Of a DNA stretch of 64,000 nucleotides, positions 20,295-44,320 are shown one piece after another. The number at the start of each line of letters is the position of its first letter. Positions within the stretch are counted from its first letter, which is position 1. Under the pieces are notes generated by a model. It made no database searches. It saw only the letters and a list, made by a program, of their open reading frames with translations, and was not told the DNA's origin. Source of the DNA: Mizuhopecten yessoensis (lineage: Eukaryota); NCBI RefSeq assembly GCF_002113885.1, contig NW_018408842.1:178074-242073 (forward strand). The letters run 5' to 3'. The position numbers and the translations under genes are program-made.

Positions 20295-21425
20295 GAGGGT
20301 ATACATGCTACCTTTATGGAATATGTATTGTTATACCATTTCAACACTGGTAGTTGATCGTAACACAACCTTACCAAATTAGTTCTGGATATTTTTGAAG
20401 ACTTGAAAAATACGAGGCAAACAGATTTTGTTTAATCCGGATGTTTCAACGAAAGAATGCGTTAGATATGGTCTTTTCATCCTGATTGCAATGAACTTAG
20501 AAATACTAGAGATTTGTTTGTTAAATGAAAGTTTCAGTATCAAATGTTTCAAGAAACAAATATAGGTGTAGCACAAATTAAGTTTTTGGACATTGCAACT
20601 AACGTTGGTTGACTGCTGGAGCTTTAGGCTTTCTCAATATATCATCAAACCTGCAGACAATGAACATATTTACCCAGATTTGTGGCGTGTGTTTTAAAAT
20701 GCAAATATTTAAGTTAGCAGCTTTAACGTTATTTGCCTGTGGTCTTATAACCCTCACCTCATATCACATATCCTGTTATTACACTCCTATTGACTACAGC
20801 TGCTGAGACATGTATCCGAATACTGTTAGGAAGTTAACAAGTCTGGCATCGGTTAAACACACGTGTTATAGTCTGGATAAAGAGATGATTCTAGGATCGG
20901 TTTTAGACTTGTTGACGTAAAGTTATGTGACTGTACTAAGTAAAAGATCATAATATCCATAGATGAAAAGACAGAAATTCTTCTAAACAATTTACCTTGC
21001 ATACCTGTTGCATTAAAGTGTCTCATTTATGTTACACTGCTGTATCATGACTTCTATACCAGGTTTTAACACTGAACTTAAGAGTTAGGATGCCTCAATA
21101 GTAACTGATAGAGCTGATGCAGATTTAAATATATATTTAAAAACCCTCTACCTACATGCAGAATATAAAAATTGAATAATAAAAACGTAATAAAAGATTA
21201 AACATTTGTCTATGCAAAATTGTGTAACTTTACCAGGCAAAGGGTAATTGATGTATATTTGTTACAATATATGAGTTCTACTTAACAATATACATTGTCT
21301 ATTGCGTGATATCTTACTTGTGTTGTAATACGTGAATCCATAATCCTCAACCCGCTAGTATCTATAATAAAGATATCAGAGAGTTGATGTAAAACAACCC
21401 TAGAAGTTCGTATTATGTAATAACT

Positions 21426-23105
21426 TTACATATATCTATTTATTGTTTCAGATATGTCGTCACTCTCTACGTAAACGGCATTTTCAAATTTGTTTTCTTC
21501 CAGTATCTGGACAAGCTTTCCGACTGGGGTATCTGGAAGCGTCATCTTTCCATTAGCCCGAGTTTCTGAAAATAAGTAAGTGGCCTTATAAATATTAATT
21601 TTCACTGTCGGCTACGCGTTTATCTAACATACTATGAACCTTTAAGCCGACGAACCTTGACTCAAAGGGTTTACAAATGGCATACACAATCGTTTTAAGA
21701 TAGAAGGAAATAAACCTTTGTTATCAATGCACAAAGTGAGTTCGGAGATTAATGATAAGATACTGGGTATAATGTACGAATAACACAACGAATCATTAAA
21801 TCTCTTAAATCATGCGAGACTAGTTATTTAACCGCATTAGAGTAAAATACTACAGATCACTTAAATAAGTGAACGTCTAAATACTGACATTGTTTACAAC
21901 GGGAAACAAACTCCAAAGAATTCCCAAACCTTTCTCTGCATGGGTAGTACTATGAAACACTTACTTTTTATCATATCTACATTAGTCTTATTAAAACACA
22001 ATTGTTCAGCTTGTTTTGTCATGTCAGTGTCGGAGATGCCTGGTGCGAACGTCAGTATCCTCAGAGAGGGTTCCTCTACGGCAAGAACACGCATATAAAT
22101 GTCACGGGCAGCTTTAGCTAAAGGTAGGAATAAACAAAGTATACATACATTGTAATTAAATATCGAACAACAACGGTAAAAACAATGTCATCGTCAATAA
22201 CGTAAACAATGTATTAAAAAAATGTACAATAATGAAATTACCACCTTCAATTATAAAAACAACTTCAAAATATTGTACCATTTTACTGATTAAGTTAGTT
22301 ATTGAAATTGATATTGAGATCCAAGACCATTTTTTTCAACACTAATCCTTCCTAATCAAACTGCATTTAACCAGAAATACATTTGTTCTATAAAGTCGAG
22401 TTATTAGAAAATAAATCAGTGAAATCTAAATTTTATCAATGTATCAAAATAACCAATATGTCAATGGTGAAGGCAAATGTCATGAAAATATTAATTGCCT
22501 AACTTAATTATAGCAAAAGCTGAGTGAAATATGACATGGGTTTTAAAGTGATTTGAATGTCGTAACTAACCTGCGCAGTAAAGGTGAACTGATGCCATGG
22601 GAGTGGAGGTAACTGCTGACGTCATATTGACGATGACACGAGACTTTGTAGAATCGGAGAAAGTCTGGAAGAAACTCGAGTTAAGAAGAATCATCCCGGT
22701 CAGGTTGATGTCGAAGTACTTCCGGACTGACGTGGAATCGGAAAGTTCGAGCGATTTCTTTGACACATCACAAAGGGTAGCACAGTTGTGAACGATCATA
22801 TATTGCTCAAAGTTATTTTGTGAAAAATTGTATTCTTGTAAAAGTTTTGTAAATATGCCTTTGAAATAATATTTGTCTTCCAAGTTTCCCTGGTCAAAAT
22901 GCCTCACCAAAACGTCCATATTCCGAGACCCAGACAACAATTCTGACTTGACACTGTCCAAAGGCAAAACATCCATGAGAACCATGACAGAGTTGTTGGG
23001 AAACTTGGCCCCAAACTGAAGTGCAATTGATCTCCCCAGTCCTCTGCTGGCGCCGGTAATGGCTACAAAGGTTTTCTTTAGAAATATGTTCGGGTGTTCC
23101 GCCAT
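21426..23105 (-). CDS. SPR: Sepiapterin reductase-like SDR, copy D, 275 aa; exons 23105-22571, 22117-21965, 21565-21426
   Basis: [29 protein letters not shown]; 535+153+140 nt in frame; C-terminus extended to VESDDISETINRYM*. Confidence 0.92.
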
Positions 23106-42176: not shown

Positions 42177-44320
42177 ACTGTTGTTGTTGAAGTCACCTTT
42201 TAACACATATGTTACTACTGACTGTTGTAAAAAGACTGTGTGATATACATGTACATGTAACAGTATATCTTATCTGTGTTGTTATGCATAGTTGTAATCT
42301 AACGTGGGGTATATATTAGGGGTTAAGTGGTCTAAGCGTTGTCCTTGACCTTCCTACTATACATGTTACATTGTCACGTGTGTCACAAGTAGTGTCAGTT
42401 TATCTCATATGTTCGCCACAAGTAGTGTCAGTTTATCTCCTATATAATAACTATGAGCACTAAGCAGTCAGGCATGGCGTACATCATGTAGCACCTGACG
42501 CTGTCTGCGTCCGTAGAACAGCTACCTATGGAATAGCAACGGCAATATCCAACAATTGGGACGGTCCGCACGAGAAGACAAAAAACACTGAAATGGGTGG
42601 TGTGAGTTATAATTCGGAACCCCTAAGATTTTTTTTCATTCCACTCCGTTGTTGGCCAAAAGGAACGAACCCCTGTGGTTCAGACGATGCATTTACATAC
42701 ATTGGAACACTAATTGGAGTAGTCATTAGTCTATGTACTGTCCAAAAGTCCATTGTCAGCTTTTATTAATTATATAACCACGGACTCAGATCCTGTAATG
42801 TAACAAATTGATGTTTTTGCACCCTGTGCAGTACACGGCTCCAAGTCTAGGTTAAAACCATAACTAAAGGGTAAGCATGTTATACACACATTCTATCGGT
42901 ATAATGTTCAATGTGATTAAGGATTTTGTCAACAAAGTCCCTTATTTTAATTTTTGAAATTTTAATATGTATTATTAGAAACAAATCTTCATTATATGTA
43001 AATGTGAAAAGGATATTATGAAATACGAAAATTCTGCATTACCGTCGGGTCAATATGGTTTCTCCAGTATAACGGAATGAATCGTAAGGGTACACAGGTT
43101 GTGGCACATTTGAAAACATAATTCTTTCTTGTTTGCAATATTGAGGTTGGAATATTTTCAAAATATAAAAGTTTGTTTTAATTCGTGTGAGTATGATAAA
43201 ATTATTTTTACAACATCACAATTTAATCAATAAAATACGATAGTGTATAGTACCTTGCAATACCCTTTTGTATAATGGTTTCATCCATTATATAAGAGCA
43301 TGACCCCCGCTCCAAACGGTATGTCGTCTGCTGGATAACGGAGGTATTACATCAGTGCACATATGCGGACGTTTTAAACATAACATACGGACACCATCAA
43401 TAAGTACGTTATCTTATTTCATAATGTTCATATTTCAATGAAACTCAACAATGAGGTCATATCTATTTCATCCTTTTCAGTTACTGCAGCGTTCTTATTA
43501 TTTTTTTTCATAATGAATACTTCGAAACTACATTATAAAGATGGACATATTTCTCATCTTTCATTGAAAACAAACAACAAAAACATATAGTTGTCAGTGA
43601 TTAAACGTAGCACAGTATTTCGTATGGTTTTGTCCATGATGAGGATTTCAAAAGCAAAGATACACAATCCCAGTTAACAATTGAACATATGTCACTATTT
43701 CACAAAATCGTCATCGGATGAAGACCACTCCAAAAAAGAAGTAATTATGCGCTGTTTTCTTTACTAAACGATTACTTCTTGTTTTGTATCTAGGTGTAGA
43801 TGTTTTGTTCTTGTTGTGGGGTACTTTGTCACGATTTTCTTCTCTGATTCTACCGCAGGAACAAAATTCGTGGGGTGGCTTTTTTTTGCATACATCAAGT
43901 GTACGTAGGAGCTTCACTATTGGTGCTTGGCGCAGTTGGAGCAATGCGTGTTGTTCCATGGGCGGATGCTCTTTCAAACGTACATTTAGAAGTAGATGTC
44001 TGTTCCCCAGTGTTACCCGTTGCAATTTCACTAATTCCGATTTCATCGTCGGCCACGCTGTCAGCGTTACTTCTAATGATGGGAGTATTGCCATTCTTTT
44101 GAGATGACATTAACTAAGTGTTGAAGAGCGGGGTGGTATAGGTGAAGTTGAGTAAGGGTTCCAGTGTGAATATACTTTTTAACAAACGAAAAAACGCCTC
44201 AAACTAGTTGTCATTGGAAGTGTGTGTGGTTCCTCAAATTTATTTTAGTAGTCCCGTCCCTTTGAAATGACCTTCTGTGTGCTTCCATGCACCTTCTGTT
44301 GGGTTTGTGTCAACCTCCAT

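What the first reader, a model, noticed from the sequence alone, without database searches (positions are those of the whole stretch)
21300..42300. A two-gene module (one NAD-type plus one NADP-type) was duplicated as a unit
Seen: D and F share introns, 3' flank (21300 vs 34453) and over 1.3 kb of 5' flank; E and G share intron 2 and 3' flank (27800-28060 vs 39100-39440). The order is D(Asp)-E(Arg)-F(Asp)-G(Arg), and all four are intact despite several independent TE insertions between them. Inference: retention of both classes in both modules fits a coupled oxidation/reduction pair, for example an epimerisation via a keto intermediate as performed by paired hydroxysteroid dehydrogenases.
Basis: partly seen in the sequence, partly recalled or inferred. 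Interest (0 to 1): 0.7.

Follow-up and report, generated by a model that had tools for sequence, protein, structure and literature searches.

The report
Scallop reductase array with cofactor switch
In a scallop's long tandem row of sepiapterin-reductase-like genes, one branch has a rebuilt cofactor loop predicted to use NAD instead of NADP, and such a gene was likely copied together with its ordinary neighbour, but nothing found here shows that the two enzymes work as a pair.

Summary
The sequence observation holds. D, E, F and G are three-exon, minus-strand sepiapterin-reductase-like SDR genes with open frames. D/F and E/G are sister pairs (73 of 82 informative sites), and the D-E spacer is collinear with the F-G spacer, so a two-gene segment of about 12-13 kb was probably duplicated in tandem. 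It was not a clean copy: D/F non-coding DNA is closer than E/G (0.17 vs 0.24, p=4e-4), E and G share no upstream DNA, and G carries an F-derived conversion tract.

The inference (a coupled epimerising pair) is not supported. The genes sit in an array of 11 intact (3 Asp, 8 Arg) and about 11 broken copies. A third Asp gene, C, has no intact Arg neighbour, single-gene units also duplicate, and sister copies differ most in the substrate pocket.

The less ordinary part is the Asp class itself: Asp ends strand beta-2, the phosphate-binding Arg is gone and the loop is two residues shorter. 0 of 19 other-scallop relatives and 1 of 148 family representatives have an acid there. Best reading: a birth-and-death repertoire of independent carbonyl oxidoreductases with a young, predicted NAD(H) branch. 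No enzyme was assayed.

The parts
21426..23105 (-). Gene D: SPR-like SDR, Asp (predicted NAD) class, 275 aa; exons 23105-22571, 22117-21965, 21565-21426; Asp45 ends strand beta-2
   Evidence: both introns spliced in 4 of 4 contig sets
28195..29990 (-). Gene E: SPR-like SDR, Arg (NADP) class, 269 aa; exons 29990-29450, 28946-28794, 28310-28195; Gly at the site matching human Asp257
   Evidence: intron 2 spliced in 2 of 4 contig sets
34647..36296 (-). Gene F: Asp class, 268 aa, sister of D; exons 36296-35762, 35266-35114, 34765-34647; AAG acceptor in intron 1
39507..42176 (-). Gene G: Arg class, 270 aa, sister of E; exons 42176-41636, 40258-40106, 39625-39507
   Evidence: intron 2 spliced in 1 of 4 contig sets
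11788..14468 (-). Gene C: third intact Asp-class gene (LMDIL), 268 aa, older than the D/F split, with no intact Arg neighbour; exons 14468-13934, 12594-12442, 11906-11788
23106..24477 (.). 5' flank of D, homologous to 36297-37559 plus 38497-38615 (5' flank of F)
27848..28194 (.). 3' flank of E, homologous to 39134-39506 (3' flank of G); with the D/F flank it makes the two spacers collinear
21287..21425 (.). 3' flank of D, homologous to the 3' flank of F from 34439; left limit of the alignable unit
40160..40376 (-). Gene-conversion tract in G: the 3' end of intron 1 (clear) and probably the start of exon 2 (weak) match F rather than E
   Evidence: intron part 31 F-like vs 5 E-like sites, exon 1 28 vs 69, p=2.5e-9; exon 2 part 7 vs 4
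25522..27026 (+). Decayed Tc1/mariner-type transposon with 30-nt terminal inverted repeats, only in the D-E spacer
   Evidence: family label recalled from motifs
27117..27431 (-). GIY-YIG endonuclease-like fragment (Penelope-type retroelement remnant), only in the D-E spacer
   Evidence: label recalled from the motif
37550..38251 (.). About 700-bp element with 53-nt inverted ends, splitting the F 5' flank
4262..5741 (-). Pseudogene A: Arg-class exon 1 with stops, split by an insertion
9449..9841 (-). Pseudogene B: short-loop remnant (LMEILAL), most of the gene deleted
49377..50063 (+). Pseudogene H: inverted, decayed copy lacking the cofactor loop; class undetermined

Best explanation
D-E and F-G are likely two copies of one tandemly duplicated segment inside a large scallop array of sepiapterin-reductase-like genes, whose members likely act as separate broad-range carbonyl oxidoreductases, the Arg class predicted to reduce with NADPH and the young Asp class predicted to use NAD(H). 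Shown: gene structures, sister relations, collinear spacers, a conversion tract, the Asp-for-Ala-Arg loop change at the end of strand beta-2, the kept Asn-Ser-Tyr-Lys site, purifying selection on the core and faster change in the pocket. Inferred: (1) after the array expanded in scallops, one copy lost two residues and the phosphate-binding Arg and gained an Asp that would bind the 2'/3' ribose hydroxyls and repel the 2'-phosphate; (2) unequal crossing-over copied an Asp gene with its Arg neighbour because they were adjacent, not because they form a pathway; (3) conversion and insertions then reshaped the copies; (4) since cytosolic NAD is mostly oxidised and NADP mostly reduced (established knowledge, recalled), the Asp class would tend to oxidise hydroxyls while the Arg class reduces quinones, dicarbonyls and ketones from diet or stress; (5) tetrahydrobiopterin synthesis is likely left to the conserved gene on contig C3819, which keeps the pocket Asp.
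For: Array size: 11 intact models on contig C5515 (3 Asp, 8 Arg) and about 11 broken or partial exon-1 copies, of both loop types, in 194 kb that holds 17,759 N. Expansion in other scallops: 19 of 30 hits are from three other species, and they form species-level clusters in the tree. Fold: D matches human SPR with NADP, TM 0.85; best family TIGR01500 for 5 of 5 exon-1 peptides. Loop: beta-2 spans 40-45 in both models, ending in Asp45 in D and in Ala45 before Arg46 in E; an acid directly after beta-2 determines NAD(H), a basic residue NADP(H) (PMC2792337, passage); T38D alone switched mouse lung carbonyl reductase (PMC5817062, table row and reference title). Rarity: 141 of 148 scored family representatives have Arg/Lys, 1 of 148 an acid; 0 of 19 other-scallop proteins have the acid. 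Unit duplication: 73 DF|EG sites vs 6 and 3; collinear spacer. Independence of members: pocket differences D/F 11 of 40 vs 23 of 222 elsewhere (p=0.008), E/G 17 of 40 vs 30 of 222 (p=6e-5); omega 0.635 in the pocket vs 0.280 elsewhere. A single Arg gene with its flanks duplicated at 96%. SPR itself accepts quinones, dicarbonyls, aldehydes and ketones (PMC7520308, passage), and an SPR gene is among oxidoreductases up-regulated in Chlamys farreri gill after toxic-alga exposure (PMC9324277, passage; which copy is not stated in what I saw).
Against: No activity or cofactor was measured. The Asp genes keep the Arg of the glycine motif (GASRG, GACRG in C), which favours NADP by the same rule. Engineered NADP-to-NAD switches usually cost activity (PMC5817062 abstract), so the Asp class could be weak or dual. 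Pocket omega is below 1 (0.635; log-likelihood -839.3 free vs -842.0 at omega 1), so relaxation is shown, not positive selection; pocket segments vary in all SDRs. Unequal non-coding divergence (0.169 vs 0.242) is not what one clean duplication predicts, and conversion between D and F is inferred, not shown. D and E are both covered in the same contig sets X1, X9 and X10, which a coupled pair would also give. A short-loop fragment lies just upstream of Arg gene u74 and B lies beside Arg pseudogene A, so Asp-Arg adjacency recurs in the array.
Confidence: 0.6

Rival explanations
1. Coupled pair: in each module the Asp enzyme oxidises a hydroxyl with NAD+ and the Arg enzyme reduces the ketone with NADPH from the other face, epimerising a small molecule; selection keeps the two genes together.
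For: Alternating order and four open frames; dN/dS about 0.32 in both sister pairs; D and E both present in contig sets X1, X9, X10; precedent in bacterial 3alpha-HSDH (NAD) with 3beta-HSDH (NADP) (PMC7996314, passage); short-loop remnants beside other Arg genes.
Against: 3 Asp vs 8 Arg intact genes and C without an intact Arg neighbour; no shared 5' flank between E and G; pocket segments differ at 20 of 40 positions between D and E and at 17 of 40 between the supposed equivalents E and G; E lacks the acidic pocket residue that G has; about half of all copies are intact, so keeping two new copies is unremarkable; in animals, linkage is not needed for two enzymes to act in sequence (established knowledge).
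Confidence: 0.1
2. The Asp loop marks relaxed or dual cofactor use, or decay: the Asp genes are drifting, weakly active copies that survive by conversion and chance, and F may already be failing to splice.
For: Arg of the glycine motif kept; C has Asp for Asn in the NNAG-type motif (HDCA) and Cys in GACRG; D lost its stop; short-loop pseudogenes exist; F has an AAG acceptor and a 179-aa public model.
Against: dN/dS outside the pocket is 0.26 for D/F and C/D; D is spliced at both introns in 4 of 4 contig sets from 4 studies; the Asp is kept in three genes across dS 0.33-0.38; the model is confident in the loop (pLDDT 97 for residues 41-50).
Confidence: 0.15
3. The order D-E-F-G arose by staggered events (an older Arg-gene duplication, a younger Asp-gene duplication, deletions of intervening copies) and not by one two-gene duplication.
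For: Non-coding divergence 0.169 (316 of 2084) for D/F vs 0.242 (174 of 842) for E/G, p=4e-4; introns alone p=0.002; E/G upstream unalignable; the middle of the spacer (24477-27848 vs 38615-39134) does not align, so the junction itself is not seen base by base.
Against: dS intervals overlap (0.14-0.28 vs 0.21-0.42; p=0.12); D/F divergence rises to 0.20-0.22 raw at both edges, near the E/G level, as a central conversion tract or promoter constraint would give; conversion is shown to occur here; both ends of the spacer are collinear, about 520 bp apart in F-G.
Confidence: 0.15

Closest known systems
Sepiapterin reductase (human SPR, PDB 1z6z; TIGR01500; classical SDR)
   Same: Fold (TM 0.85, 32% identity), best family hit, Asn-Ser-Tyr-Lys site, GASRG motif; the Arg class keeps Ala-Arg-Asn after beta-2.
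   Different: Many copies instead of one; the Asp class has Asp-Val/Ile and a loop two residues shorter; the site matching Asp257 is Glu (C, D, F, G) or Gly (E), while the conserved gene on C3819 keeps Asp; pocket segments diverge fast.
NAD(H)-preferring classical SDRs with an acid at the end of beta-2; engineered mouse lung carbonyl reductase T38D
   Same: Asp at the last position of beta-2 followed by a hydrophobic residue.
   Different: Here it is a natural, recent change inside an NADP family; the Arg in the glycine motif is kept; cofactor use is unmeasured.
Paired bacterial hydroxysteroid dehydrogenases (3alpha-HSDH NAD with 3beta-HSDH NADP; 7alpha/7beta)
   Same: Two SDR-type enzymes with predicted opposite cofactor preference side by side.
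   Different: No shared substrate, opposite stereospecificity, fixed 1:1 pairing or co-regulation is shown here; per the passage seen, 7alpha/7beta pairs are often both NADP-dependent, so cofactor contrast neither defines nor is needed for such a pair.
Birth-and-death tandem gene arrays of bivalves (C1qDC, IAP and others in the listing)
   Same: Tandem copies, pseudogenes, unequal crossing-over, conversion, species-level clusters.
   Different: A metabolic SDR family; no paper on this array was found in the searches made.

Membership tests
Classical SDR, SPR-like clade | Rossmann fold with TGxxxGxG motif | tested here: met
   TGASRGLG in D, E, F; AGASRGLG in G; TGACRGLG in C; TM 0.85 to 1z6z
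Classical SDR, SPR-like clade | Asn-Ser-Tyr-Lys catalytic tetrad | tested here: met
   D: Asn134, Ser163, Tyr176, Lys180; same columns in C, E, F, G
Classical SDR, SPR-like clade | Closest profile and solved structure are sepiapterin reductase | tested here: met
   TIGR01500 best for 5 of 5 exon-1 peptides (85-110 bits; the whole-protein cut-off of 206.55 cannot be judged on one exon); 8 of 9 PDB sequence hits are SPR
True sepiapterin reductase (BH4 synthesis) | Basic residue after beta-2 for NADP(H) | tested here: not met
   Not met in C, D, F (Asp45-Val/Ile46); met in E, G
True sepiapterin reductase (BH4 synthesis) | C-terminal active-site Asp (human Asp257; role in anchoring pterin recalled, named as active-site residue) | tested here: not met
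   Glu in C, D, F, G and Gly in E; Asp in 104 of 150 representatives (19 gaps) and in the C3819 gene
True sepiapterin reductase (BH4 synthesis) | Reduces sepiapterin or 6-pyruvoyl-tetrahydropterin | not testable with these tools
   Needs enzyme assay
NAD(H)-preferring SDR | Acidic residue at the end of beta-2, no basic residue in the next position | tested here: met
   Asp45 is the last residue of E40-45 in the model of D; C and F align without gaps to it
NAD(H)-preferring SDR | No basic residue in the glycine-rich segment | tested here: not met
   Arg21 kept in C, D, F
NAD(H)-preferring SDR | Measured preference for NAD(H) | not testable with these tools
   Needs kinetics
Epimerising dehydrogenase pair | Fixed one-to-one pairing of the two classes | tested here: not met
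   3 Asp and 8 Arg intact genes; C unpaired
Epimerising dehydrogenase pair | Co-expression or shared regulation | tested here: inconclusive
   D and E both covered in contig sets X1, X9, X10, but contigs give no level or tissue; E and G upstream regions do not align
Epimerising dehydrogenase pair | Shared keto intermediate and opposite stereospecificity | not testable with these tools
   Needs chiral assays; pocket divergence between equivalent copies argues against one conserved substrate
Two-gene tandem segmental duplication | Sister pairs and a homologous spacer | tested here: met
Two-gene tandem segmental duplication | Equal neutral divergence of both gene pairs | tested here: not met
   0.169 vs 0.242 non-coding, p=4e-4; dS 0.20 vs 0.29, p=0.12

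The most novel reading that the evidence does not exclude
This scallop has evolved, from a single NADPH reductase family and within one lineage, an NAD+-driven oxidase branch that works with its NADPH-driven neighbour as a two-enzyme epimerase or redox relay on a dietary compound (for example a hydroxy/keto carotenoid such as pectenolone, the main ovarian carotenoid of this species per PMC7411991, or an algal metabolite); the Asp-Arg gene pair is the repeating unit of this part of the array.
Probability: 0.1. Interest if true: 0.65.

Novelty: new variant of a known kind. Interest (0 to 1): 0.33.

Why it matters
The two-gene duplication is ordinary genome mechanics. The Asp class is a natural, recent and datable change of the cofactor-selecting loop in a family that is almost uniformly NADP-type (141 of 148 representatives). 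Close Arg-class sisters (about 70% identical) sit next door, which gives a clean natural test of how an SDR changes cofactor, and perhaps reaction direction, with a two-residue deletion plus one acid. It also warns that 'sepiapterin reductase' hits in scallop stress and toxic-alga transcriptomes may be members of a diversified array and not the pterin enzyme. If the pair did prove to be an epimerase, it would be a rare case of a two-step pathway born from one gene family in an animal.

Tried and rejected
Allelic or assembly artefact for D-E vs F-G: rejected; non-coding divergence is 0.17-0.24 while near-allelic copies in the same contig are about 95-96% alike, and spliced contigs match D with 0-2 differences. 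Spacer similarity from dispersed repeats: rejected for the distal D-flank block; the first 50 bp left of the E/G shared flank (about 27810-27860) is a common repeat and is not used as evidence. Expression: no RNA holder on record was listed (X1-X14 are guessed RNA). Raw RNA runs X21-X24 (about 18-19% of each read; stretch 22300-42250) gave no reads on D exon 1, E or G and a few on F exons 2-3 in one run, which could come from D; tissue unknown, so no conclusion. F exon 1 had almost no cover and no F joint was listed in 4 contig sets; absence in contigs is not evidence. H as an Asp-class remnant: not supported, it groups weakly with Arg pseudogene A (82/85). C as an Asp/Arg chimera: its intron 2 is nearer E/G than D/F, but the exon 2-3 tree is unresolved. 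Positive selection in the pocket: not shown (omega 0.635). Search for short Asp-class fragments from other species: 1 candidate, none significant. Complex prediction for a D-E heterodimer was not run, since SPR homodimer structures would make a pass uninformative. Literature: searches found no paper on a scallop SPR array or an NAD-type SPR; most subscription papers are not in the library and no supplements were read, so lists of differentially expressed genes in supplements could name these copies. Earlier findings by place and by sequence: none.
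Full report
What is there. A self-comparison of the window shows a family of related genes from 4 kb to 50 kb. Splicing them by GT-AG rules gives five open three-exon genes on the minus strand, C, D, E, F and G, plus three broken copies, A, B and H. The five models equal public proteins letter for letter; the sources label them 'sepiapterin reductase-like [Mizuhopecten yessoensis]'. The best family is TIGR01500, 8 of 9 solved-structure hits are sepiapterin reductase, and the model of D (pLDDT 92) overlays human SPR with NADP at TM 0.85. 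D is spliced at both predicted introns in 4 of 4 contig sets from four studies, E at intron 2 in 2 of 4, and G at intron 2 in 1 of 4; these runs are only guessed to be RNA and give no level or tissue.

The window is the end of a larger array. A search of the own genome gave 34 matches, most on the same contig between about 65 and 228 kb. In 194 kb of that contig (17,759 N) there are 11 intact models, 3 with Asp and 8 with Arg after strand beta-2, and about 11 broken or partial exon-1 copies. Three more distant genes lie on other contigs; one of them (C3819, minus strand) keeps the C-terminal Asp of true SPR and is the likely pterin enzyme. Pecten maximus, Ylistrum balloti and Argopecten irradians supply 19 of the 30 protein hits and form their own small clusters in the tree, so the expansion is a scallop-family trait with continuing turnover.

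Was a two-gene unit duplicated? Probably. D+F and E+G are starred sister pairs in the protein tree and in the exon-1 DNA tree. Of 82 informative coding sites, 73 group D with F and E with G. The D-E and F-G spacers align in order at both ends: 23106-24371 with 36297-37559, 24359-24477 with 38497-38615, and 27848-28178 with 39134-39480; the distal block is found nowhere else by a genome search, which has limited sensitivity. The extra length of each spacer holds mobile elements. Three results cut against a clean single event. Non-coding divergence is 0.169 for D/F (316 of 2084 columns) and 0.242 for E/G (174 of 842), p=4e-4; alignment blocks under 10 columns were dropped and only alignable E/G blocks were counted, which understates the E/G figure. 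dS is 0.20 (0.14-0.28) and 0.29 (0.21-0.42), not significantly different. E and G share nothing upstream of about 7 bases before the start codon. Conversion can explain the first point and is shown to act here: the last 118 bases of G intron 1 match F at 31 diagnostic sites and E at 5, against 28 and 69 in exon 1 (p=2.5e-9), and F-G identity there (93 of 110) exceeds D-F (83 of 110). D/F divergence is lowest around exon 1 and the near promoter (0.065-0.08) and 0.20-0.22 at both edges. That D and F were homogenised is my inference.

The Asp class. In both structure models beta-2 spans residues 40-45. In E it ends in Ala45 followed by Arg46, as in human SPR; in D it ends in Asp45 followed by Val, and the loop is two residues shorter. 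An acid directly after beta-2 determines NAD(H) use and a basic residue NADP(H) use (PMC2792337, passages); a single T38D change switched mouse lung carbonyl reductase (PMC5817062, passages). Among 150 family representatives, 148 had a residue in the column: 141 are basic at the Arg site and 1 (unnamed P0156) is acidic at the Asp site. None of the 19 other-scallop proteins has the acid. C, D and F form one starred clade nested among this genome's Arg genes, so the change arose once and recently; Chlamys and other close relatives were not among the hits, so its exact age is open. The Arg of the glycine motif is kept, which leaves dual specificity possible. Outside the pocket the Asp genes are under purifying selection (dN/dS 0.26).

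Is it a coupled pair? The evidence does not support it. Both classes surviving in both modules is expected when about half of all copies are intact. C is an intact Asp gene flanked by D and by pseudogene B. A single Arg gene with its flanks duplicated recently at 96% identity (u99/u115). Using segments chosen by SDR convention (the loop between the catalytic Ser and Tyr, and the substrate loop with its helices; 40 columns), D and F differ at 11 of 40 against 23 of 222 elsewhere, and E and G at 17 of 40 against 30 of 222; omega over nine genes is 0.635 in these segments and 0.280 elsewhere. Equivalent members of the two modules thus appear to be drifting apart in what they bind, and E has lost the acidic pocket residue that G keeps. 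In favour of coupling: short-loop remnants lie beside two other Arg copies, D and E occur in the same contig sets, and NAD/NADP epimerising pairs exist in gut bacteria (PMC7996314, passages).

How it most likely works. Each gene likely encodes a soluble dimeric SDR (dimer state recalled from SPR and stated in the abstract seen) using the Ser-Tyr-Lys relay. SPR itself reduces quinones, vicinal dicarbonyls, aldehydes and ketones (PMC7520308, passages), and an SPR gene is up-regulated with detoxification genes in Chlamys farreri gill after toxic-alga exposure (PMC9324277, passages). The array is best read as a widening repertoire for dietary and stress carbonyls, in which the Asp branch would add NAD(H) use and, given cytosolic redox ratios (recalled), a tendency to oxidise. 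Substrates are unknown; hydroxy/keto carotenoids are only a suggestion from the species' known pigments (PMC7411991, passages).

Novelty. Searches found no description of this array or of an NAD-type SPR in the library held; no supplements were read. An unreviewed note from this scan describes a similar mix of cofactor motifs and swapped parts in a sea-squirt SDR array; I did not test it, and if right it makes this pattern less rare. Verdict: observation confirmed; unit duplication probable with later conversion; coupled epimerase unsupported (about 0.1); the predicted cofactor switch is a new variant of a known kind. Interest 0.33.

Noticed in passing
G000:C5515:159096-174943 (L011, L012), just left of the window: A gapped copy of window 1785-25920, mostly 90-96% alike. 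In it, C intron 1 is followed after about 620 N by D's 5' flank, suggesting a C/D fusion haplotype or an uncollapsed allele with one Asp gene fewer.
   Followed up: partly
window 20500-21232 and 48190-49321: The DNA left of D aligns weakly and in order (64-74% in short blocks) with the DNA right of G, next to inverted pseudogene H; it may be the trace of a further lost unit or an old repeat. The genome search did not recover the match.
   Followed up: partly
G000:C5515:98195-107609 and 114110-122540: Recent 96% duplication of one Arg-class gene with a pseudogene fragment (u99/u115), dS 0.07.
   Followed up: partly
G000:C3755:323208-323741; G000:C5515:75002-75172; window 9638-9841: Broken short-loop copies reading D-R-L-A-L, D-I-S-A-L and E-I-L-A-L; the first keeps both Asp and Arg and may preserve an intermediate of the loop change.
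   Followed up: partly
protein P0156 (unnamed): A distant SPR-like protein (31% to D) with its own Asp and short loop (LLDIL) and no catalytic Lys; an apparently independent switch.
   Followed up: no
G000:C690:333128-338583 and Ylistrum protein P0031: An SPR-like pair of orthologues with Ser-Pro after beta-2, matching neither the NAD nor the NADP rule.
   Followed up: no
window 35259-35275: F intron 1 ends in an AAG acceptor directly followed by a donor-like GTAAG; one public model of F stops at 179 aa.
   Followed up: partly
G000:C20913:1-234 (L019): A 234-base contig holding an F-like piece of exon 1; an allele of F or the missing exon of the gapped copy.
   Followed up: partly
window 52740-53500, minus strand: Coding-looking exon of an unrelated gene (read by eye).
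   Followed up: no
window 268-1673, 18348-19264, 31971-32312, 57628-59734, 61164-63302: Several tandem-repeat arrays with units of about 45-145 bases.
   Followed up: no
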